This document shows positions 11,896 through 19,439 of a DNA stretch of 64,000 nt, one piece after another. Each line of letters begins with the position of its first letter. Position 1 is the first letter of the stretch. The DNA is from Gammaproteobacteria bacterium (GTDB taxonomy: Bacteria; Pseudomonadota; Gammaproteobacteria; Natronospirales; REEB76): positions 8,143 through 72,142 of the forward strand of contig DASYCJ010000055.1 of the NCBI GenBank assembly GCA_036500225.1, in the 5' to 3' direction. Below the pieces are notes generated by a model. The model had not been told where the DNA came from and ran no database searches. It was given only the letters and a program-made list of their open reading frames with translations. Both the position numbers and the translations under genes were made by a program.

Positions 11896-12381
11896 ATGCC
11901 TTCTTTCGACGCCGTCTCCAAGGTCGACACCGCCGAACTCACCAACGCAGTGGACCAGGCCAGCCGCGAGATAGGCCAGCGCTATGACTTCAAGGGTTCC
12001 TCCGCCGCCATCGAACGCAGCGACGACCTGCTGACGCTGTTCGCCGACAGTGAGTTCCAGCTCAAGCAGGTGATGGACATCCTGTACGGCAAGGCTGCCA
12101 AGCGCGGCATCGACGTCTCCAGTTTCGACCCGCAGAAGATCGAAGCCATCAGCGGCGACAAGGCCAAGCAGGCCATCAAGGTGAAACAGGGTATCGAGAA
12201 GGAACTGGCGAAGAAGATGGTGAAGTTGGTCAAGGACAGCGGCCTCAAGATCCAGGCCGCCATCCAGGGGGACGAGCTGCGGGTCTCCGGCAAGAAGCGC
12301 GACGACCTGCAAGCCTGCATGGCGCTGTTCCGTGGTGCGAAATTCGAACAGCCCATCCAATTCACGAATTTCCGGGATTGA
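11896..12381 (+). CDS. yajQ: YajQ family nucleotide/cyclic-di-GMP-binding protein (UPF0234)
   Basis: MPSFDAVSKVD...RYDFKGS...IQGDELRVSGKKRDDLQ...FTNFRD is collinear with E. coli YajQ (about 160 aa). Confidence 0.95.
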   Translation: MPSFDAVSKVDTAELTNAVDQASREIGQRYDFKGSSAAIERSDDLLTLFADSEFQLKQVMDILYGKAAKRGIDVSSFDPQKIEAISGDKAKQAIKVKQGIEKELAKKMVKLVKDSGLKIQAAIQGDELRVSGKKRDDLQACMALFRGAKFEQPIQFTNFRD

Positions 12382-12389
12382 TCCTCAGT

Positions 12390-13289
12390 CTATTCAGCTG
12401 GACTCACATCCAACGTCATGTCGTGAAAATCTAAAGTCAGCAGGGTTCCCGCGAAGAACTCATTGCCCACCGTGCCCTGGAAGCGCTCCTGATAGGGCTG
12501 ATGCACCTTGATGGTGGGGAAATACACCGTGGCCGGATGCGACAGCACCGTGCCAGCGAAACCGGTGGAATCCACTTGTACTCCCAGCATATCCACGCCG
12601 CCGTCGGTGATGGGGAAGTTGCGCACGATGGCGTGCTCAGTAGCCTTCTCGAAACCGAAGCTCTTCTCAGCGCCGCTGAAGATGAGCAGCGAACCGGTAT
12701 AGCTGGTATCGATCTGGGCCTCCAAGGACTTACCGTCTACGGTGAAGGGTCCACCCACCACGATGGGCGGACCCCAATCATGGAAGTCCACCAGCTTTAG
12801 CACACCCTTCCCCGGCTTCGGGTGTTCATCGGGTCTCAGGAGCTGTGACACCCGGATCAGGTGACGCTTGTAATCGATCTGCAGCACCCGGTCCTTGAAG
12901 AAGGTGTAATCCAGGGTGCCGGTATATTTGGCCAGCACGCCCATCTGGTCCGGAGACATCGCCAGGAAATCGGCACTGCCCTGAGCTCCGGCGAACTCAG
13001 CGGGCTTGGGCCCATCCGTGAGGAACAGGCCGGCCACGACCTGGTTCTGGGATTTATAGGGAGTGAGCTTCCAGCCCAAGGCGCGCGCCACGTTCTCCGA
13101 TATGGAGGAGTGGTTGTAGCTGGTGTCCAGCAGGAAGGTGTGGGGCTTGTGATCGGAGAGCGTCACCTGGATACAGATGGCGCCATCGCAGGGCCTGAAG
13201 GGTACCGCGGTGCCGTATTCCACGGTACCGCCCTGGGCGGCACCTGAAGCGAGTAGGGCCAGCGCCGCCGATGCTATCCGTCCGTACAT
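12390..13289 (-). CDS. secreted protein with two tandem retropepsin-like (clan AA aspartic-protease-like) lobes carrying D-T-S motifs
   Basis: I moved the start to the ATG at 13289 (MYGRIASAALALLASGAAQG signal peptide, GGGAG about 6 nt upstream). Each half has the retropepsin-like layout: ...TFLLDTSYNHSSIS...GTLDYTFFKDRVLQIDY and ...EAQIDTSYTGSLLIF...GTVGNEFFAGTLLTLDF. Confidence 0.55.
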   Translation of the reverse strand: MYGRIASAALALLASGAAQGGTVEYGTAVPFRPCDGAICIQVTLSDHKPHTFLLDTSYNHSSISENVARALGWKLTPYKSQNQVVAGLFLTDGPKPAEFAGAQGSADFLAMSPDQMGVLAKYTGTLDYTFFKDRVLQIDYKRHLIRVSQLLRPDEHPKPGKGVLKLVDFHDWGPPIVVGGPFTVDGKSLEAQIDTSYTGSLLIFSGAEKSFGFEKATEHAIVRNFPITDGGVDMLGVQVDSTGFAGTVLSHPATVYFPTIKVHQPYQERFQGTVGNEFFAGTLLTLDFHDMTLDVSPAE

Positions 13290-13381
13290 GGAACACTCCC
13301 GCCTGCGCCGAGCTGGCAGCATTGGGAGTGTCTGAATGGAAGGAAGTTCCCTGGCCTTAAGGTCAGACCGGAAACCGGCTG

Positions 13382-14197
13382 TCAGTGCTTGTCGTCCTTG
13401 AAGATATCACGACGCACTTCATTGTCGCCCAGCGGCCCGAAGCGCAGGTCAGCGAGCCCGGCGGTGACTTTCAGGTCCACGTCGTCCTTGCCCTTACCCT
13501 GCTGGGTGACACTGTTGCCGAGCATGTGCAGGTGACTCAGGAAACCATCGTTCTTCTCCGGCGGCGGGCCGTAGTACTGCCCATCCAGACTGAGGACCGC
13601 CAGGCCGAAGGTACTCTTGATCGTGACGTCCCGCGGCTCGTCAGCATCGGAGATCACATGCAACCGGCCGGCACTGAGACGGCCATAGATGGCACCGCTG
13701 GGGACGTGGATCACCACTTCGCCCGCCGCGAGCTGTGCTTTCACGCCGCCCTTCACGCCATCGATGGCCATGCGTCCTTCCCCCATGGAGGCATCCACGC
13801 CGAAGCGCTCCGGCACTTGCACGGTCCACTCCTGTTTCACATCGCTGTTATGATCGTCGCCGGACGGGAAGATCACCGACAAGGTCAGGGTATCGCCCTT
13901 GTGGACCTGGCCTATCTTGGCGCCTTCGGTATCACGCAGGGTTGCTTCGGTGGATAAGGCGATGCCGAGCACATGCCGCTCCTCCTGTTGCATCACCAAC
14001 GTCACGTGTACTGCATCGTCCGGCGATACGCTGATGCTGGTCTCGCCGGCGGTACCTTTGAGCGAGAGGAACTGGAGCCCAGCGGCCGGGATGTCAGTCT
14101 TGAGAGTCACGGGTTCGCTACCAGAATCCCGCACGCTGCAACCCGTGAGGGCCAGGGCCGCTGCGAGCGTGCCGAATACGATGAGATGACGTGTCAT
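13382..14197 (-). CDS. lipoprotein with C-terminal short beta-strand repeats (DUF4097/LiaG-like), paralog of 14194..15024
   Basis: Lipobox LALTGC. It shares collinear motifs with the upstream gene product (DIPAAGL/DIEAAGL, DDAVHVTL/DDEVHVQL, VKQEWTVQVP/VKQEWDVQVP). Confidence 0.65.
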   Translation of the reverse strand: MTRHLIVFGTLAAALALTGCSVRDSGSEPVTLKTDIPAAGLQFLSLKGTAGETSISVSPDDAVHVTLVMQQEERHVLGIALSTEATLRDTEGAKIGQVHKGDTLTLSVIFPSGDDHNSDVKQEWTVQVPERFGVDASMGEGRMAIDGVKGGVKAQLAAGEVVIHVPSGAIYGRLSAGRLHVISDADEPRDVTIKSTFGLAVLSLDGQYYGPPPEKNDGFLSHLHMLGNSVTQQGKGKDDVDLKVTAGLADLRFGPLGDNEVRRDIFKDDKH

Positions 14198-15024
14198 TTC
14201 CCTGCTCCCTTGTGGGCGGCGTCCGCTGACGTGAGGTGCAGGGTCACCTGGCCGATGTTGAGTCTGAGATCCATACTGTCCGGGCCGTCACCGTCCATGG
14301 AGACCTTGTTGCCCAGGCCGCCGTGCTCGTGCACACCCGATTCAGCGCCCTGGAACAATAGGGTCGCATCGCCGATGTTGCTGGCGAGCTGGATGCGGCC
14401 ATGGTGGCTGCTGGCAGACTTGGCGCGGATCTCACCCACGTTCACGTCTGCATCGATGCTGCCCTGGGGCACGTCGATCTCGAGTTCACCCACGTCGAGC
14501 TTGGCACCGACACCGCCGGCCACGTCGGCGATGTCCATCTCGCCCACGTTCATGACCGAATCGAGCTTGAGGCGCACCGGCACCTGCACGTCCCATTCCT
14601 GCTTGACCTCGTCCTGGTCATGGCCGTCGAGGTCCAGAGACAGAGTCAGGCGCTTGTCCTTGCGATCCTGATGGATCGAGGCAGCGGAGATGTCGTGGGA
14701 CAAGCCGCCGGACCAATGCAGGAAACCCAGGAAGGAGCGCTCCTTGGGACGCAGCGTCAGCTGCACATGCACTTCATCATCATGGGATGCCGTCACGCGC
14801 AGCTCGCCGACACGGACCTGCAGCCCCAAGGTATCGAGACCGGCAGCCTCGATATCCGCATTCAGGGTGCGAGGACCGACATGCCGGCTGTCCTCACCGA
14901 CGACACCCTGCTCGGTGTCGTCACGCATCTCGGAACTGCGGTCGGGATGCTTGGCCGCGTACCAAGCGAAACTGCCGACCAACAGGACGATGATGGCGAC
15001 CAGGACTGCAGTGGTCTTGTTCAT
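14194..15024 (-). CDS. membrane-anchored protein with beta-strand repeats (DUF4097/LiaG-like), paralog of 13382..14197
   Basis: N-terminal transmembrane anchor (TAVLVAIIVLLVGSFAWYAA). Repeats of the V-G-E-x-x-I type follow (VGEMDIADV, VGELEIDV, VGEIRAKS). ATGA overlap with the downstream paralog. Confidence 0.65.
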   Translation of the reverse strand: MNKTTAVLVAIIVLLVGSFAWYAAKHPDRSSEMRDDTEQGVVGEDSRHVGPRTLNADIEAAGLDTLGLQVRVGELRVTASHDDEVHVQLTLRPKERSFLGFLHWSGGLSHDISAASIHQDRKDKRLTLSLDLDGHDQDEVKQEWDVQVPVRLKLDSVMNVGEMDIADVAGGVGAKLDVGELEIDVPQGSIDADVNVGEIRAKSASSHHGRIQLASNIGDATLLFQGAESGVHEHGGLGNKVSMDGDGPDSMDLRLNIGQVTLHLTSADAAHKGAGK

Positions 15025-15046
15025 CTTGAAAGGCCTCCAAGGCCCC

Positions 15047-15376
15047 CTAGCGGATCACGTTGATGTGGCAGTGCACGCTAGTGGTATCCGGGTTGGCGAG
15101 GGCGATCTGCACCGCCTTCTCCAGGGTCTCAGGGGCATGTACTGTGCCTGACAGGTATACACGGCCGTCAGCGGTCGCCACGCTCAAGTCCGCCTCATGG
15201 GTGGCGGGATCGGCATCGAGGCCGGTGCGGATGGCCTTGGCCAGGGTCGTGTCGTGATGGCTGGACGAATCCCAGGTGGAATCGCCGTCCCCCACGCCGT
15301 TGCCGAGGGCCAGCACACAGCCACCGAGGTTGGCCATGGCGGCACACAGGGTCAGGGTCACCAATACACGTCGCAT
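15047..15376 (-). CDS. BON domain lipoprotein, 109 aa
   Basis: I moved the start to the ATG at 15376 (MRRVLVTLTLCAAMANLGGC lipobox, GGAG 8 nt upstream). The BON-like core is ...LSVATADGRVYLSGTVHAPETLEKAVQIA. Confidence 0.7.
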   Translation of the reverse strand: MRRVLVTLTLCAAMANLGGCVLALGNGVGDGDSTWDSSSHHDTTLAKAIRTGLDADPATHEADLSVATADGRVYLSGTVHAPETLEKAVQIALANPDTTSVHCHINVIR

Positions 15377-15413
15377 GTCTTCGCTCCAGATGAAGGTTGA
15401 TAGAGCCCGGGGG

Positions 15414-16373
15414 TTAGATCTCGGTGCGCTTGCGGCGCAGCCAGATGGCACCGTAGATGAAGGCTGTCGCCACCACCAGGCCTATCCACAGGCTCGGGCT
15501 GGCGATGATCTGGCCGATGTTGCTGAGGCCCATCACCGGACCGGACAGGTCCATGTGCTTCCAGCTCTGCATCTCGATGGGGTCGAGGTTGAAAGCCAGT
15601 TGCAGCCAGTGCAGCTTGTAGGCGAGCAGCATGCGGGCGAAGCTGCCGGTGTGGAACACCCACAGCTCGGCGAACATGACGCCCGCCGGCACCAAGAGGG
15701 CCCACAGGAACGGCACCTTCTTGGCCCAGCTGGAGGCCAGCATGTACCAGGCGTAGAAGGGCAGGTACCAGATGGCCTGCACGATGAGGCCATAGGCCAG
15801 CAGCGACCAGGCACCGATGAAGGAGCCGGGATGCGCCAGCAGCACCCAGGGATGAGTCCCCACGGCCGCGCCCATGATCATGAGCAACAGCAGCAGTATC
15901 AACTCGAACGCCACGGTCACCGCGAAACTCACGGCAGTGACGCTGATAAGCGCCGTGCCAAGCTTGGCCAGCACGGTGCGTGCATCCGATACCGGCATGG
16001 ATCTCCAGAACAGCACGCTGCGGTCACGGCGCTCCGCATACAGGCTATCCAGGAGATAGAAGAACACCACGATCTGCATAAGCAGGTTGAAAAGCCAGCC
16101 CAAGCTGAAGGTCACCGCGCGGATGAACATCCTGATGCCGTCGTCGTCCGCATCGCGGAAGTCCGGCAGGTTGTCCAGCTGGAAATGGGTGCCGTTGGAG
16201 AATTCCACATTGTTGATGGTCTGGTTGTGGCCGATCAGTACCGCCACCAGCATGTACAGGGACAGCACCGTGAGCACGCCGGCCACCACCGTGGGCACCA
16301 TCCACAGCGAGCGGTTCTCCCAGAACTCGCGACGGATGAGTGTCTTGTTCACGCGCATGTCGGCGGCGTTCAT
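15414..16373 (-). CDS. ABC-2-type transporter permease, 319 aa
   Basis: About six hydrophobic helices, with a large loop after the first. Its start overlaps the ATPase stop (ATGA, 16370-16373). Confidence 0.7.
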   Translation of the reverse strand: MNAADMRVNKTLIRREFWENRSLWMVPTVVAGVLTVLSLYMLVAVLIGHNQTINNVEFSNGTHFQLDNLPDFRDADDDGIRMFIRAVTFSLGWLFNLLMQIVVFFYLLDSLYAERRDRSVLFWRSMPVSDARTVLAKLGTALISVTAVSFAVTVAFELILLLLLMIMGAAVGTHPWVLLAHPGSFIGAWSLLAYGLIVQAIWYLPFYAWYMLASSWAKKVPFLWALLVPAGVMFAELWVFHTGSFARMLLAYKLHWLQLAFNLDPIEMQSWKHMDLSGPVMGLSNIGQIIASPSLWIGLVVATAFIYGAIWLRRKRTEI

Positions 16374-17227
16374 TGCATGCCTCCTTTGACCTTGGCGACG
16401 AAGATGTCGGCCACGCTTGGAGTGTGGATCTCGCCGAGCTTGCTGAGCTCGTCGCGGGACACGCCCTCGTATAGATAGAGTTTCTTACCGAACACCTCAC
16501 GCTCATACAGGGGCTTCAGCCCTTGGGCCGCGGCAGCCTTGTCCGGGGCGACCAGCACTTCCGTATATTCCTCGGCCACCTGGTCCATGGAGCGGTCCAG
16601 GGTGACCCGGCCGCCGTCGATGAACATCAGGTGGGTGAGGATCTTCTCGATCTCCTCCACCTGGTGGGTGGTGACGATGATGGTGCGCTGCGCGTCGAAG
16701 TAGTCGTTGAGCAGGCTGGTGTAGAACTCCTTCCTATATAGGATGTCCAGACCGAGGGTCGGCTCATCCAGCACCAGGAGCTTGGCGTCGATGGCCATAA
16801 TCAGCGCCAGATGCAGCTGCGTGACCATGCCCTTGGACAGCTCGCCGACCCTGCTCTTTTGCTTGATCTTGGTCTTCTCCAGGAAATGCATGGCGCGCTC
16901 GCGGCTGAAGCCGGGGTGCACCGCTTCCACGTATTCCACGGCGTTGTGCACACGCAGCCAGCGCGGCAGCACCGCCACGTCGGCGATGAAGCACACGTCA
17001 CGCATCAGGTTATGGCGAGCCTGCCGCGGGTCATGGCCGAGCACGTCCAACTCGCCCTCGAAATCCGTGAGTCCGAGGATGGCCTTGAGCGCGGTGGTCT
17101 TGCCGGCGCCGTTGGGGCCAATTAGACCGACGATGCGGCCCTCCTCGATCTCGAAGTCCACCTTGTCCAGCGCGCGGGTGGCGCCGTACTGCTTGCTCAA
17201 GCCGCGGGCCTTGACCAGGGTCGTCAT
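16370..17227 (-). CDS. ABC transporter ATP-binding protein
   Basis: Walker A GPNGAGKTT, Walker B LLVLDEPTLGLD, and an atypical signature LSKGM in place of LSGGQ. A C-terminal extension of about 70 aa is present. Confidence 0.9.
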   Translation of the reverse strand: MTTLVKARGLSKQYGATRALDKVDFEIEEGRIVGLIGPNGAGKTTALKAILGLTDFEGELDVLGHDPRQARHNLMRDVCFIADVAVLPRWLRVHNAVEYVEAVHPGFSRERAMHFLEKTKIKQKSRVGELSKGMVTQLHLALIMAIDAKLLVLDEPTLGLDILYRKEFYTSLLNDYFDAQRTIIVTTHQVEEIEKILTHLMFIDGGRVTLDRSMDQVAEEYTEVLVAPDKAAAAQGLKPLYEREVFGKKLYLYEGVSRDELSKLGEIHTPSVADIFVAKVKGGMQ

Positions 17228-17598
17228 GACTTGCTTCCTTTTTCGCCTTCACGGGCCAGTTCCATCAGGTCCAGACCCAACCTCTGTACGCGCTGCAGGA
17301 TCAGCGGCCATTCGCTCTTCAGGAACTGCTCGCGCTCGTTCTTCATCAGGCTGCGACGCGCGCCTTCCTTGACGAACATGCCCAGGCCGCGGCGCTTCTC
17401 CACCAGGCCCTCGTCCACCAGTGACTGGTAGCCCTTGAGCACGGTGAGGGGGTTGATCTGGTATTCGGCGGCTACCGAGCGTACCGAGGGAAGCGGATCA
17501 CCCTCCTTGAGGGTGTCTTCCAGGATCATGGCGACCACCCGATCCCGCAACTGGCGGTAGATCGGTTGGTTGTCGCTCCAGGTGGGTTCCATGTCCAT
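17224..17598 (-). CDS. GntR-family transcriptional regulator, YtrA-like subfamily (short, no classical effector domain)
   Basis: Winged HTH PLPSVRSVAAEYQINPLTVLKGYQSLVDEGLVEKRRGLGMFV, followed by only about 50 further residues. ATGA overlap with the ABC ATPase gene. Confidence 0.85.
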   Translation of the reverse strand: MDMEPTWSDNQPIYRQLRDRVVAMILEDTLKEGDPLPSVRSVAAEYQINPLTVLKGYQSLVDEGLVEKRRGLGMFVKEGARRSLMKNEREQFLKSEWPLILQRVQRLGLDLMELAREGEKGSKS

Positions 17599-17613
17599 TG
17601 GCCTCTCGCTGCT

Positions 17614-17645
17614 GTAGCCGGATAGTCGACTAGTGCTGCGGCTAC
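17614..17645 (-). promoter_or_regulatory. hairpin/palindrome between the 150-aa ORF and the GntR gene
   Basis: GTAGCCG ... CGGCTAC (7-bp stem) enclosing the perfect 10-bp palindrome TAGTCGACTA (17623-17632). Confidence 0.3.
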
Positions 17646-17646
17646 C

Positions 17647-18099
17647 TTAGCCGCCCGTCCGCCCAAAGACCAGCGCACCGACCATCGTCAGCAGGCTGCG
17701 GGAACCGGTGGAATCCGCCATCGCTAAGAGCGAACCGATTACCGGCAACTTGCCGTTGTGCGCTTTGACCTGCACCGTGCCGAGATAGACCGCACCGGAC
17801 TGCTGGGCGGCGCTCACTGCATAGCGGACGTCACTGGAGTCGGACGGGGTCACCCGGATGGTGCCCAGGTAGGCAGTGCCGTAGCCGGGCTTGGCCGCAT
17901 GGGTACCCGCCACATCGGCAGGGGTGACCTCGATGGTGCCCAAGTGGATGACCTTGCCGCTGGCATGGCTCACGCCACTACCCTGTGACCGGGCGGCCTT
18001 CACGGCCGGCTGGGCGCTGGCGGCTTCGGCAGCTAGGTTCATGCCCATCAGGCTCAAACCCAAAACGACCGCAGTGCTGATCTTGGTGATGCTGTTCAT
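17647..18099 (-). CDS. secreted protein with three (Y/H)LGT(I/V)-x-V repeats, 150 aa
   Basis: Signal peptide MNSITKISTAVVLGLSLMGMNLAAEAASA. Repeats: VIHLGTIEVTPADVAG, TAYLGTIRVTPSDSSD, AVYLGTVQVKAHNG. The C-terminus is hydrophobic (LLTMVGALVFGRTGG). Confidence 0.55.
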   Translation of the reverse strand: MNSITKISTAVVLGLSLMGMNLAAEAASAQPAVKAARSQGSGVSHASGKVIHLGTIEVTPADVAGTHAAKPGYGTAYLGTIRVTPSDSSDVRYAVSAAQQSGAVYLGTVQVKAHNGKLPVIGSLLAMADSTGSRSLLTMVGALVFGRTGG

Positions 18100-18148
18100 G
18101 GTCTTCTCCTTCTGTTCCTGCGAGCTCCGGGGGAGCCCGTTCCGTAGT

Positions 18149-18172
18149 GGTGTTGTAGCTAACTATAACACC
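18149..18172. promoter_or_regulatory. inverted repeat GGTGTTGTAG-CTAA-CTATAACACC, candidate operator
   Basis: 9 of 10 positions are complementary. It lies 50-73 nt upstream of the start of the 150-aa ORF that heads the GntR/ABC operon. Confidence 0.45.
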
Positions 18173-18309
18173 AAACAAGAGGAAAGCAAGGGGTATGGAG
18201 CATTTTTCTCCATGTGCATATAACTCTTTATTAATCAATAAGTTGTAAATATAACAAGTTGGCAAAACTGACAAGAGCCCAAGCTGGATGAGGGCTCTGC
18301 GCAGCCCCG

Positions 18310-18330
18310 CTATAACACCCCTATAACACC
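18310..18330. repeat. tandem direct repeat CTATAACACC-C-CTATAACACC (11-bp period)
   Basis: Two exact copies of the same 10-mer that forms the right arm of the 18149-18172 inverted repeat. It lies about 120 nt upstream of the mdh start. Confidence 0.45.
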
Positions 18331-18449
18331 GGCCATGACATCCCGGCTCTTCTGCGGCGGCGGGCTGTCATGGGGCGGGTGCTAAAATCGCGTCCCTTTA
18401 GCCGCGCTTGCCGCGGCTCCTGCCACCTTCGAGAACACGGAGTTCCTCC

Positions 18450-19439
18450 ATGGCAAATAAGAAACCCGTCCGGGTCGCCGTCACCGGCGCCGCCGGCCAG
18501 ATCGGCTACCAGCTCATTTTCCGCATCGCCGCCGGCGACATGCTGGGCCCGAAGCAGCCAATCATCCTACAGCTCCTGGAAGTGACGCCTGCCCTGCCGG
18601 GCCTGAACGGCGTGGTGATGGAACTGAACGACTGTGCTTTCCCCTTGCTGGCCGGCATCGTCGCCACCGACAACGCGGAAGTCGCGTTCAAGGACGCGGA
18701 CTACGCGCTGCTGGTGGGCGCGCGCCCGCGCGGCCCCGGCATGGAGCGCAAGGACCTGCTCACGGAGAACGCCAAGATCTTCTCGGTACAGGGCAAGGCA
18801 CTGAACGCCACTGCCAAGAAGAACGTGAAAGTGCTGGTGGTGGGCAACCCGGCCAACACCAACGCACTGATCGCTGCGGAGAACGCGCCGCGCATCCCAC
18901 GCAAGAACTTCACCGCCATGATGCGCCTGGACCACAACCGCGCCATGGGCCAGCTCGCCGCCAAGACCGGTAAGCACGTCACCGACATCAAACGTATGAC
19001 CGTGTGGGGAAACCATTCCTCCACCCAGTATCCCGACATCAACGCCTGCACGGTGAAGGGCAAGCCCGCCGCGAAGCTGGTGGATGAGTCCTGGTTCGCC
19101 AACGACTTCATCTCCACCATCCAGCAGCGAGGCGCGGCCATCATCAAGGCTCGCGGCGCCTCCTCGGCTGCTTCCGCCGCCTCTGCCGCCATCGACCACA
19201 TGCGCGACTGGGCACTCGGCACTGCCAAGGGCGACTGGGTGAGCATGGCTGTCGCCTCCGACGGCAGCTACGGCATCAAGAAGGGCATCATGTACGGCTA
19301 CCCGGTGACCTGCAGCAAGGGCCAGTGGAAGATCGTGAAGGGCCTGAAAGTCGGCAACTTCTCCCAGGAGCGTATGGCGGCCACCGAGAAGGAACTGCGC
19401 GAAGAGCGGGACGGGGTCAAAGACCTCTTGCCGGTTTGA
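18450..19439 (+). CDS. mdh: malate dehydrogenase (LDH-like, about 329 aa type)
   Basis: I moved the start to the ATG at 18450 ([22 protein letters not shown]..., ACGGAG upstream). The NAD-binding GAAGQIG and the catalytic-region MRLDHNR are present. Confidence 0.95.

What the first reader, a model, noticed from the sequence alone, without database searches (positions are those of the whole stretch)
13382..18099. Seven-gene YtrA-type GntR / ABC exporter / BON / paralogous beta-repeat envelope operon: best candidate for an uncharacterised system
Seven consecutive minus-strand ORFs are separated by at most 50 nt or by ATGA overlaps (17224-17227, 16370-16373, 14194-14197). In order they encode: a secreted triple-repeat protein; a 124-aa GntR regulator with no classical effector domain (YtrA-like architecture); an ABC ATPase with a deviant LSKGM signature; a six-helix ABC-2-like permease; a BON lipoprotein; and two paralogs, one membrane-anchored and one a lipoprotein. 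The paralogs share DI(P/E)AAGL, DD(A/E)VHV and VKQEW(T/D)VQVP motifs and end in short beta-strand repeats of the DUF4097/LiaG kind. In Firmicutes, YtrA operons and LiaG-type proteins belong to cell-envelope stress responses. I do not know of a described proteobacterial module that combines these parts with a BON lipoprotein. The composition suggests an envelope-facing export or stress-sensing machine whose substrate is unknown.
Basis: partly seen in the sequence, partly recalled or inferred. Interest (0 to 1): 0.65.

Follow-up and report, generated by a model that had tools for sequence, protein, structure and literature searches.

The report
Autoregulated GntR–ABC envelope operon variant
The seven genes form a real operon (a small repressor, an ABC pump and several periplasmic helper proteins), and it is a local variant of a very widespread module of unknown function whose Xanthomonas regulator, HpaR1, controls virulence.

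Summary
Seven tightly packed minus-strand genes (13382-18099) encode a secreted repeat protein, a 124-aa YtrA-type GntR, an ABC ATPase (LSKGM), an ABC-2-like permease, a BON lipoprotein and two paralogous beta-repeat proteins.

The paralogs have the Toastrack (DUF4097-like) fold. This shows by structure and profile only; Pfam itself finds nothing.

The core GntR-ATPase-permease trio is not rare. Relatives occur in at least 595 species genomes across several phyla, always in the same order. Most sit behind one conserved 24-bp palindrome, GGTGTTATAGTTNNCTACAACACC, which covers the -10 box. In the window it lies at 18149-18172, upstream of the first gene.

The accessory genes after the permease vary: Toastrack, BON, DUF2884, DUF4386 or DUF2306.

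The GntR/ABC/permease/Toastrack combination in Proteobacteria was already described computationally (Ravi et al. 2024, XAC1545 type). By synteny, its Xanthomonas regulator is HpaR1, and deleting hpaR1 derepresses the adjacent genes.

New here are the BON plus duplicated-Toastrack variant, the leader protein, and the cross-phylum operator.

Most likely function: an autorepressed ABC-2 extruder or sensor for envelope stress with a periplasmic scaffold. Substrate unknown.

Verdict: new variant of a known, still uncharacterised kind; moderate interest.

The parts
18184..18189 (-). Candidate -35 hexamer TTGCTT
   Evidence: Read from the sequence. It lies 16 nt upstream of TATAGT. The same 16-nt spacing occurs in X. 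albilineans L089, where the -35 is TTGACA. The consensus scan missed it. Inferred.
18149..18172 (-). 24-bp palindromic operator GGTGTTATAGTTAGCTACAACACC. It contains the candidate -10 box TATAGT (18162-18167).
   Evidence: Unique in the 64-kb window, with 0 matches expected by chance. The same palindrome lies within 900 nt upstream of the GntR gene in 60 of 72 usable species loci, and only 2 matches lie elsewhere in 1.14 Mb. Binding by G2 is inferred.
18310..18330 (-). Two tandem extra half-sites GGTGTTATAG, about 150 nt upstream of the operator, facing the divergent mdh gene
   Evidence: Upstream half-sites of this kind also occur in L001, L005, L008, L011 and L016. Their role is unknown (auxiliary operator?).
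17647..18099 (-). G1: secreted leader protein, 150 aa. It has a signal peptide, three LG(T)IxVT(P/A) repeats and the C-terminal tail ALVFGRTGG.
   Evidence: Homologues carry 2-5 repeats and the same tail. No Pfam or NCBIfam hit. It lies downstream of the operator, so it is inside the regulated unit.
17224..17598 (-). G2: YtrA/HpaR1-type GntR repressor, 124 aa
   Evidence: Pfam GntR 5.6e-13. Best solved relatives are full-length YtrA-type regulators: 3tqn at 9e-39, then 3ic7, 6sbs, 3neu and 2ek5. It is 64% identical to the Xanthomonas albilineans orthologue.
16370..17227 (-). G3: ABC ATPase, 285 aa, DrrA/NodI/PmtA-like, signature LSKGM
   Evidence: ABC_tran 4.6e-22. Best NCBIfam hit is PmtA at 1.7e-37, below its cutoff. 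Nearest solved relatives are the ABCA nucleotide-binding domains and Rv1218c. Family conservation is shown.
15414..16373 (-). G4: ABC-2-like permease, 319 aa
   Evidence: No Pfam hit. Homologues are annotated 'ABC-2 type permease' and some carry PF13346. The AF2 model has pLDDT 81. Foldseek top hits are NosY, ABCH, PmtD and Rv1217c, with probability up to 1.0 but E about 0.03.
15047..15376 (-). G5: single-BON-domain lipoprotein, 109 aa (lipobox LGGC, +2 Val)
   Evidence: Pfam BON 1e-10. Start and lipobox are conserved in homologues. BON lipoproteins also follow the permease in the distant loci L015, L027, L032, L059, L071 and L077.
14194..15024 (-). G6: periplasmic Toastrack-fold protein, 276 aa, N-terminal transmembrane anchor (the ancestral copy)
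   Evidence: Paralog of G7. The single Toastrack gene in L014, L017, L018 and L041 is 47% identical to G6 against 31-33% to G7. Homologues carry either a transmembrane anchor or a signal peptide.
13382..14197 (-). G7: Toastrack-fold lipoprotein, 271 aa (lipobox LTGC, +2 Ser), the lineage-specific duplicate
   Evidence: AF2 model pLDDT 76. Foldseek against PDB gives 4qrk at E=2e-7, then 3pet, 3jx8 and 3ljy. The family profile reaches 4034 proteins. A broadened profile hits the DUF4097 proteins of Stenotrophomonas operons.

Best explanation
This is an autorepressed operon of the HpaR1/YtrA-ABC-2 family.

Regulation. A sigma-70-type promoter has its -10 box inside a 24-bp palindrome. The 124-aa GntR dimer (G2) binds the palindrome and shuts off G1 through G7, including its own gene.

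Transporter. G3 and G4 form a homodimeric ABC-2 (type V) transporter in the inner membrane with no substrate-binding protein. By analogy with MbrAB, PmtABCD and LanFEG, it expels membrane-active amphipathic molecules (peptides or lipid-like compounds) from the inner membrane.

Sensing. G2 has no effector domain. Induction most likely works through the transporter: when the pump is engaged, its ATP-bound ATPase captures the repressor and frees the promoter.

Accessory proteins. The BON lipoprotein (G5), the anchored Toastrack (G6) and the Toastrack lipoprotein (G7) are periplasmic add-ons. They most likely form a scaffold on or above the permease that receives, sequesters or senses what the pump handles. 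G1 is a secreted leader protein, either a partner or a substrate.

Shown here: gene content, homologies, folds, operator conservation, co-occurrence.
Shown in an orthologue (literature): repression of the downstream genes.
Inferred: operator binding, capture of the repressor by the ATPase, substrate class, the scaffold role.
For: Tight gene coupling, read from the sequence.

G2 is YtrA-type.

The palindrome is unique in the window. It lies upstream of the GntR gene in 60 of 72 species loci, against 2 matches elsewhere in 1.14 Mb. It overlaps TATAGT with the same 16-nt spacing to a -35 as in X. albilineans.

The trio GntR-ATPase-permease is present in the same order in every locus with enough flank, out of at least 595 species genomes.

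The permease has an ABC-2 fold. The ATPase is nearest to PmtA, DrrA, NodI and lantibiotic-protection ATPases.

Toastrack genes follow the permease in two different genomic contexts: the mdh slot, and the btuE/fumarase context of Lysobacteraceae. BON lipoproteins follow it in lineages whose permease is only 31-36% identical.

Every accessory product has a signal peptide, lipobox or transmembrane anchor.

Literature:
- In Xcc, deleting hpaR1 (XC_2736, YtrA subfamily, autorepressor) puts XC_2737 (nodI) and XC_2738-2741 on the list of changed genes, among the entries that appear to be the induced ones; XC_2740 is explicitly up 13.8-fold (PMC4730234; PMC6430473 Tables S1 and S3).
- The gene order matches X. 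albilineans.
- Capture of a YtrA repressor by its ABC ATPase was shown for MbrR/MbrAB (bioRxiv 10.64898/2026.02.18.706565).
Against: No experiment exists for this lineage.

The capture mechanism has been shown only in Bacillota.

Most trio loci lack BON and Toastrack, so these are not essential to the core.

All BON-containing loci whose flanks could be placed lie in or near the same chromosomal slot (mdh and/or purT present). Their association could therefore be inherited rather than repeatedly selected.

Pfam does not recognise G4, G6 or G7. The fold match of G4 has weak E-values (0.03) and TM-scores of 0.3-0.45.

No terminator was found after G7, so the 3' end of the unit is uncertain.

ppGpp has been reported to modulate DNA binding by HpaR1, which is a different input from transporter capture.
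Confidence: 0.55

Rival explanations
1. Two or three unrelated units share one transcript. The GntR-ATPase-permease trio is a self-contained drug or peptide extruder. G5-G7 are an independent envelope-stress set, and G1 is an independent secreted protein. They merely sit next to the trio in one chromosomal slot.
For: Most of the 80 trio loci lack BON and Toastrack, and carry DUF4386, DUF2306, ferritin-like or no downstream genes instead. All BON-containing loci whose flanks could be placed lie near mdh and/or purT.
Against: The genes are linked by ATGA overlaps and gaps of at most 48 nt, with no terminator inside the cluster. Toastrack follows the permease in a second, unrelated genomic context, the Lysobacteraceae. 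In Xcc, XC_2737-2741 are all on the list of genes changed in the hpaR1 deletion mutant, and XC_2740 is up 13.8-fold. Ravi et al. found the same linkage independently.
Confidence: 0.15
2. A mechanotransducing ABC machine rather than an exporter. As in NosDFYL, ATP hydrolysis in the ABC-2 dimer drives conformational changes in a periplasmic beta-helix-like protein (here Toastrack). That protein, together with the lipoproteins, matures, inserts or repairs an envelope component.
For: The best structural matches of the permease are NosY chains of NosDFY(L), with probability 0.90-1.0. NosDFYL also combines an ABC-2 permease, a periplasmic beta-helix protein and a lipoprotein (established knowledge). 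Toastrack is a beta-helix-like fold. All the accessory proteins are periplasmic.
Against: The fold match is generic to ABC-2 permeases: PmtD, ABCH and ABCG also appear. There is no sequence relation between Toastrack and NosD. Many trio loci work without any such partner.
Confidence: 0.15
3. A producer-immunity module. G1 (and the leader proteins of other lineages) is a secreted toxic or signalling protein. The ABC-2 pump and the lipoproteins protect the producer, as LanFEG/LanI or Pmt do. The repressor senses the load of G1.
For: The first gene after the operator is, in many lineages, a small, fast-evolving secreted or membrane protein. The ATPase resembles PSM-export and lantibiotic-protection ATPases.
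Against: G1 has an ordinary Sec signal peptide. There is no double-glycine leader and there are no modification or processing genes. Many loci have no leader ORF, with the operator 20-200 nt from the GntR gene. The leader sequences fall into unrelated groups.
Confidence: 0.1

Closest known systems
GNTR-HTH -> ABC-ATPase -> permease -> TM+Toastrack -> SIG+DUF2884 operon (XAC1545 type), described computationally by Ravi et al. 2024, mSystems (PMC11237479)
   Same: Same order of regulator, ATPase, permease and Toastrack. The core is homologous: GntR 64% identical, permease 33%, and the Toastrack is linked by profile. The operator palindrome is the same. A lipoprotein is encoded after the permease.
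   Different: Here a BON lipoprotein stands between permease and Toastrack, and there is no DUF2884. The Toastrack is duplicated into an anchored copy and a lipoprotein copy. The leader protein is of a different type. The genomic context is different.
HpaR1 (XC_2736) of Xanthomonas campestris pv. campestris
   Same: A YtrA-subfamily GntR and an autorepressor (PMC4730234). It lies between btuE and a nodI-like ATPase followed by four hypothetical genes, which appear among the genes changed in the deletion mutant; XC_2740 is up 13.8-fold. The X. albilineans locus has the same layout.
   Different: Orthology to Xcc HpaR1 rests on synteny and on a sister species. The Xcc sequence itself was not compared here. 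HpaR1 is also reported as a global activator (gum, engXCA, hrp), and nothing of that kind can be inferred for this MAG.
MbrR/MbrAB (Streptococcus salivarius), PmtR/PmtABCD (Staphylococcus aureus), YtrGABCDEF (Bacillus subtilis)
   Same: A YtrA-type repressor encoded with an ABC-2-type transporter. The operon is autoregulated through a palindrome. The Ytr operon also starts with a small membrane protein, YtrG. These systems give the working model for sensing through the transporter.
   Different: They are Gram-positive systems without periplasmic partners. Pmt and Ytr have two ATPases and two permeases. The NCBIfam scores for PmtR and PmtA are far below their cutoffs (52 vs 200; 129 vs 350). 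Substrates there are known or suspected; here none is.
NosDFYL
   Same: An ABC-2 permease fold (best PDB match) combined with a periplasmic beta-helical protein and a lipoprotein.
   Different: There is no sequence homology among the accessory proteins, no nos genes nearby, and a different regulator.
LiaG/LiaF and PspC-Toastrack proteins; OsmY/DolP BON proteins
   Same: The Toastrack fold and the BON domain, both from envelope-stress contexts.
   Different: The LiaG model scores 13.6 bits against a cutoff of 285. The OsmY and DolP models score 17-23 bits against cutoffs of 174-184. There is a single BON domain rather than two. No lia or psp genes are nearby.

Membership tests
YtrA subfamily of GntR regulators | N-terminal GntR winged helix-turn-helix domain | tested here: met
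   Pfam PF00392, E=5.6e-13, residues 14-76.
YtrA subfamily of GntR regulators | Short C-terminal part of about 50 aa (two helices) with no effector-binding domain; total length about 120-130 aa | tested here: met
   G2 is 124 aa. The best solved matches align over nearly its full length to YtrA-type proteins of 113-129 aa: 3tqn, 3ic7, 6sbs, 3neu, 2du9/2ek5, 4r1h.
YtrA subfamily of GntR regulators | Encoded in one operon with an ABC transporter behind a long palindromic site | tested here: met
   ATGA overlap with the ATPase gene. The conserved 24-bp palindrome lies upstream. DNA binding itself cannot be tested with these tools.
ABC-2 / type V ABC exporters | Separate nucleotide-binding protein with Walker A, signature, Walker B and H-loop | tested here: met
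   ABC_tran 4.6e-22. GPNGAGKTT, LSKGM, LLVLDEP and TTHQ are conserved across 84 homologues. The Q-loop position appears to read FIADVA; this was judged by eye only.
ABC-2 / type V ABC exporters | Six-helix permease with the ABC-2 fold and no substrate-binding protein | tested here: inconclusive
Toastrack (DUF4097 / DUF2807 / LiaG-type) | Match to the Pfam or NCBIfam sequence models | tested here: not met
   No Pfam family at E<=0.1 for G6 or G7. NCBIfam LiaG gives 0.028, 13.6 bits, against a cutoff of 285.
Toastrack (DUF4097 / DUF2807 / LiaG-type) | Beta-helix-like 'toast rack' fold; homology reachable through intermediate sequences | tested here: met
   AF2 model pLDDT 76. Foldseek gives 4qrk at E=2e-7 and probability 1.0, then the DUF2807-type structures. 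A broadened family profile hits the downstream proteins of Stenotrophomonas operons (E 1e-6 to 1e-11). One of these scores DUF4097 at 3e-9 in Pfam, and the L027 protein scores 1.2e-27.
XAC1545-type GntR/ABC/Toastrack/DUF2884 operon (Ravi et al. 2024) | GNTR-HTH, ABC ATPase, permease and membrane or periplasmic Toastrack, in this order | tested here: met
   Direct comparison with X. albilineans L089.
XAC1545-type GntR/ABC/Toastrack/DUF2884 operon (Ravi et al. 2024) | DUF2884 lipoprotein encoded after the Toastrack gene | tested here: not met
   No DUF2884 hit in any window protein, whereas L076, L082 and L089 have it. A BON lipoprotein and a Toastrack lipoprotein are present instead.
Pmt phenol-soluble-modulin export system | PmtR, PmtA/C and PmtB/D equivalogs; two ATPases and two permeases | tested here: not met
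   PmtR scores 52.3 bits (cutoff 200) and PmtA 129.3 bits (cutoff 350). There is no PmtB or PmtD hit. The cluster has one ATPase and one permease.
OsmY / DolP BON proteins | Two BON domains; equivalog score | tested here: not met
   One BON domain. OsmY scores 22.7 bits (cutoff 174) and the DolP-type model 17 bits (cutoff 184).
Known anti-phage defence systems (PADLOC) | Match of the specific components | tested here: not met
   Only generic P-loop hits for the ATPase, and nothing for the other six proteins.

The most novel reading that the evidence does not exclude
The seven products build an envelope-spanning machine of a kind not yet described. An inner-membrane ABC-2 motor would be coupled through a periplasmic Toastrack (G6) to lipoproteins G7 and G5, which may be outer-membrane anchored. 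The secreted G1 would act as connector or cargo through its 3-5 beta-strand repeats LGTIxVT(P/A); these look like TonB boxes, a resemblance from memory that was not tested.

In parallel, control of a YtrA repressor by capture at its ABC ATPase would extend to Gram-negative bacteria. That would explain what the Xanthomonas virulence regulator HpaR1 senses.
Probability: 0.12. Interest if true: 0.8.

Novelty: new variant of a known kind. Interest (0 to 1): 0.5.

Why it matters
The core trio is one of the most widespread uncharacterised regulator-transporter modules in Gram-negative bacteria. Relatives occur in at least 595 species genomes, and the regulator and operator are far more conserved than the pump itself.

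No substrate or signal is known for it. How effector-less YtrA regulators sense anything is an open question outside the Firmicutes.

The link made here has three parts: the same operator across phyla, the same operon as next to hpaR1, and the hpaR1-adjacent genes changed in the deletion mutant (XC_2740 up 13.8-fold). This makes one idea directly testable in a tractable organism: that the phenotypes of the HpaR1 'global virulence regulator' run through, or are sensed by, the adjacent ABC/Toastrack system.

The BON plus double-Toastrack variant and the leader proteins give natural handles, in the form of gene gain and loss, for finding what the periplasmic parts do.

Tried and rejected
- Direct Pfam and NCBIfam scans give nothing for G1, G4, G6 and G7. 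Profiles and structure models were needed instead.
- The consensus promoter/terminator scan found neither the promoter nor a terminator for the unit. The promoter was read by hand and supported by comparison with L089.
- Rfam finds no RNA family in 12000-19000.
- PADLOC gives only generic ATPase similarity, so this is not a known defence system.
- The 2026 Acinetobacter 'GntR-ABC efflux system' paper describes an unrelated locus: a classical GntR, dehydrogenase genes and an SBP-type ABC transporter.
- Suvorova et al. 2015 supplements: no match to the operator strings searched in the stored text. One file was cut when stored, so absence is not proven.
- Attempts to confirm the orthology by locus tags (XAC1542, XCC1500) found no papers. 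Orthology to HpaR1 was instead argued from the RNA-seq tables and from X. albilineans synteny.
- The downstream gene 12390-13322 (Asp_protease_2-like) was considered as an eighth member. It was rejected because it is absent or displaced in relatives.

Full report
**Observation**

The region 13382-18099 holds seven consecutive minus-strand ORFs exactly as described. Reading the strand confirms the ATGA start/stop overlaps at 17224-17227 (G2/G3), 16370-16373 (G3/G4) and 14194-14197 (G6/G7). The remaining gaps are 48, 37 and 22 nt.

The only correction concerns the BON gene. Its real start is almost certainly ATG 15376, giving 109 aa that begin MRRVLVTLTLCAAMANLGGC. The GTG at 15451 from the mechanical ORF list would overlap the permease gene. 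Homologues start at the equivalent Met.

Base composition is uniform across the region, so nothing suggests recent import. No Rfam family matches.

**What the proteins are**

- G2 is a GntR-family protein of 124 aa (Pfam 5.6e-13). Its closest solved relatives are all full-length YtrA-type regulators of 113-129 aa: 3tqn at 9e-39, then 3ic7, Sulfolobus YtrA 6sbs, 3neu, 2du9/2ek5 and 4r1h.
- G3 is an ABC ATPase (4.6e-22). It is nearest to the PmtA, DrrA, NodI and lantibiotic-protection models, all below their cutoffs, and to the ABCA and Rv1218c nucleotide-binding domains among solved structures. The 'deviant' LSKGM signature is invariant in 80 of 84 homologues. It is therefore a family trait and not decay.
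- G4 has no Pfam hit. Its 1519 detectable relatives are called ABC-2 permeases by JGI, and a few carry PF13346. An AF2 model (pLDDT 81) shows six long membrane helices. Its best PDB matches are NosY of NosDFY(L), ABCH, PmtD and Rv1217c, with probability up to 1.0 but E about 0.03 and TM-scores of 0.3-0.45.
- G5 is a single-BON-domain lipoprotein (1e-10).
- G6 and G7 are paralogs: 37% identity, E=3e-35. Pfam finds nothing, and the LiaG model gives only 13.6 bits.
  - The AF2 model of G7 (pLDDT 76) matches the DUF4097-type structure 4qrk at E=2e-7, followed by the DUF2807 'putative adhesin' structures.
  - A family profile finds 4034 proteins in 1.84 billion representatives.
  - A broadened profile reaches proteins that Pfam does call DUF4097.
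- G1 is a secreted protein with three LGTIxVT(P/A) repeats and a conserved tail, ALVFGRTGG. Homologues carry two to five repeats.

**Regulatory region**

A 24-bp palindrome, GGTGTTATAGTTAGCTACAACACC, lies at 18149-18172, 49-74 nt upstream of the G1 start codon. It is unique in the window, with none expected by chance.

It contains TATAGT (18162-18167). Sixteen nt upstream of that lies TTGCTT. In X. albilineans the same arrangement reads TTGACA-16 nt-TATAGT. I therefore read the palindrome as an operator covering the -10 box of the operon promoter.

Among the 80 species-representative loci retrieved with the permease, 72 have enough upstream sequence. Of these, 60 carry the palindrome (at most 3 mismatches in 18 specified positions) within 900 nt upstream of the GntR gene. 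Only two matches lie anywhere else in 1.14 Mb.

The loci include Gammaproteobacteria, Acidobacteriota, Verrucomicrobiota, Alphaproteobacteria and Gemmatimonadota. In keeping with this, G2 is 64% identical to the Xanthomonas protein, while the permease is only 33% identical.

**Conservation of the neighbourhood**

The full seven-gene form recurs in relatives whose G7 is 41-73% identical. It always sits between mdh and yajQ/purT. The gene after G7 varies, which sets the 3' limit of the conserved block.

A scan of one genome per species found relatives of the permease in at least 595 genomes. In every retrieved locus with enough flank the order is GntR, ATPase, permease.

What follows the permease changes from lineage to lineage:

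- a single G6-like Toastrack (L014, L017, L018, L041; 47% identical to G6);
- a BON lipoprotein plus a long DUF4097 protein (L027 and L071, Pfam 1.2e-27 in L027; L059 by my own profiles only);
- BON alone (L015, L032, L077);
- DUF4097 plus a DUF2884 lipoprotein in Stenotrophomonas, Luteimonas and Xanthomonas (L076, L089 and others);
- DUF2884 alone (Rudaea);
- DUF4386 or DUF2306 membrane proteins in Acidobacteriota, Verrucomicrobiota and Caulobacterales;
- nothing.

All BON and Toastrack products carry signal peptides, lipoboxes or an N-terminal anchor. They are therefore periplasmic.

G6 is the ancestral Toastrack copy, and G7 is a lipoprotein duplicate confined to the window's lineage.

Many gammaproteobacterial loci share the mdh slot. 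The BON association may therefore be inherited from one ancestor. The Toastrack association, in contrast, also holds in the unrelated Lysobacteraceae context.

**Leader genes**

Where the operator lies more than about 250 nt from the GntR gene, the space holds a small ORF for a secreted or membrane protein.

- One group (the window's lineage, L014, L016, L018, and partly L023, L046 and L082) has the LGxIxVT(P/A) repeats and the tail ALVFxRxGG.
- The Lysobacteraceae, Rhodanobacter and Rudaea group ends in (L/M)PY(F/Y)SF(A/G).

In X. albilineans this 80-aa ORF stops 2 nt before the GntR start codon and is not among the called genes.

**What is already known**

Ravi et al. [quoted passage not shown] The window's core is homologous to that type.

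The X. albilineans locus reads btuE | GntR-ATPase-permease-DUF4097-DUF2884-147 aa. In X. campestris 8004, XC_2735 appears to be btuE and XC_2737 appears to be nodI (both read from the position of the names in the flattened table), XC_2736 is HpaR1, and XC_2738-2741 are hypothetical.

XC_2737-2741 are all in the table of genes changed in the hpaR1 deletion mutant, among the entries that appear to be the induced ones. XC_2740 is explicitly up 13.84-fold (PMC6430473 Tables S1 and S3).

HpaR1 is a YtrA-subfamily autorepressor and a global regulator of virulence, xanthan, motility and stress tolerance (PMC4730234). I conclude by synteny that G2 is an HpaR1 orthologue. I could not align the Xcc sequence itself.

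For the mechanism of sensing, a 2026 preprint shows that the streptococcal YtrA-type repressor MbrR is captured by the ATP-bound ATPase of its cognate ABC extruder when bacteriocins engage the pump. It proposes this as general for Bacillota.

The B. subtilis ytrGABCDEF operon also starts with a small membrane protein and responds to lipid II-cycle inhibitors (PMC12772383 abstract).

**Most likely mechanism**

The operon is an autorepressed ABC-2 extruder or sensor module for the cell envelope. G2 sits on the -10 palindrome. G3 and G4 handle a membrane-active amphipathic compound. The engaged transporter relieves repression. G5, G6 and G7 form a lineage-specific periplasmic scaffold that takes over, sequesters or senses the substrate. 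G1 is a partner or a substrate.

Confidence differs by step. Repression and the unity of the core are well supported, by the conserved operator and the Xcc data. Capture at the ATPase, the substrate class and the scaffold role are inference only.

Three rivals remain open:

- accidental co-transcription of separate units;
- a NosDFYL-like mechanotransducer;
- a producer-immunity module for the leader protein.

**Novelty and interest**

This is not a new category. It is a new variant of a known but experimentally untouched operon type: BON lipoprotein, duplicated Toastrack and repeat leader.

As far as the held literature shows, three things are not described: the cross-phylum operator overlapping the -10 box, the frequent unannotated leader ORF, and the connection of the Ravi et al. 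operon with HpaR1.

Interest is moderate (0.5). A specialist would not be very surprised by the parts. However, the system is very widespread, it is linked to a virulence regulator, and the open question of how YtrA regulators sense signals in Gram-negative bacteria becomes directly testable.

**Limits**

- No multimer modelling and no transcript data were available.
- The TonB-box resemblance of the G1 repeats and the apparent Q-loop substitution (FIADVA) rest on my memory of canonical motifs and were not tested.

Noticed in passing
L089 5756-5998 (X. albilineans); similar ORFs in L024, L034, L054, L065, L076, L078, L080, L053, L084, L082, L086: A small ORF (80-165 aa) lies between the operator and the hpaR1-type GntR gene. 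It is missing from the called genes in L089, the only locus with a gene list. It has an N-terminal signal or transmembrane segment and a conserved C-terminal motif (L/M)PY(F/Y)SF(A/G). In L089 it ends 2 nt before the GntR ATG. B. subtilis YtrG, a small membrane protein encoded first in the ytr operon, may be a parallel.
   Followed up: partly
window 17647-18099 (G1 repeats at residues 53-60, 78-85, 106-113): The repeat LGTIxVT(P/A)xD resembles the TonB box of TonB-dependent receptors (D-T-I-x-V-T-A). This comparison is from memory and was not tested. The number of repeats varies from 2 to 5 between homologues.
   Followed up: no
window 18310-18330: Two tandem extra copies of the operator half-site GGTGTTATAG lie about 150 nt upstream of the main palindrome, close to the divergent malate dehydrogenase gene. 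Upstream half-sites of this kind recur in L001, L005, L008, L011 and L016. They could be an auxiliary operator or a link to mdh expression.
   Followed up: partly
window 18333-18373: A 13-nt inverted repeat (92% complementary, 15-nt loop), CCATGACATCCCG/CGGGCTGTCATGG, lies in the same intergenic region between the operon and mdh.
   Followed up: no
window 16370-17227 (G3) and 84 homologues: Besides the invariant LSKGM signature, the family has a conserved FIADVA(V/I)LP segment where the Q-loop glutamine of canonical ABC ATPases would be expected. This was judged by eye and not by a formal alignment to reference domains.
   Followed up: partly
window 17224-17598 vs 15414-16373; L089: The regulator is far more conserved than the transporter it controls: 64% against 33% identity to Xanthomonas. 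This matches the near-invariant operator across phyla.
   Followed up: yes
window 12390-13322: A secreted 310-aa protein with an Asp_protease_2-like segment (Pfam 1.6e-6) follows G7 on the same strand after 59 nt. It is a variable neighbour. In L001 and L008 a beta-lactamase-family protein of about 630 aa sits between G7 and its homologue; L009 and L010 have a comparably sized ORF (626-627 aa) that was not scanned and no G8 homologue. In L003 and L005 neither gene is present.
   Followed up: partly
L013 / L008 (JBLNDO010000054.1): The contig is labelled 'Bacillota bacterium' MAG but carries the full gammaproteobacterial seven-gene cluster with the same mdh/yajQ/purT synteny. It is probably mis-binned or mislabelled.
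   Followed up: no
L030, L031, L035, L044, L049, L058, L064, L072: In Acidobacteriota-type loci and L044 (Gemmatimonadota), the gene between operator and GntR is instead a conserved secreted protein of 164-223 aa (motifs HYCDAGNRPRM and HMHHAVFT). It was not identified.
   Followed up: no
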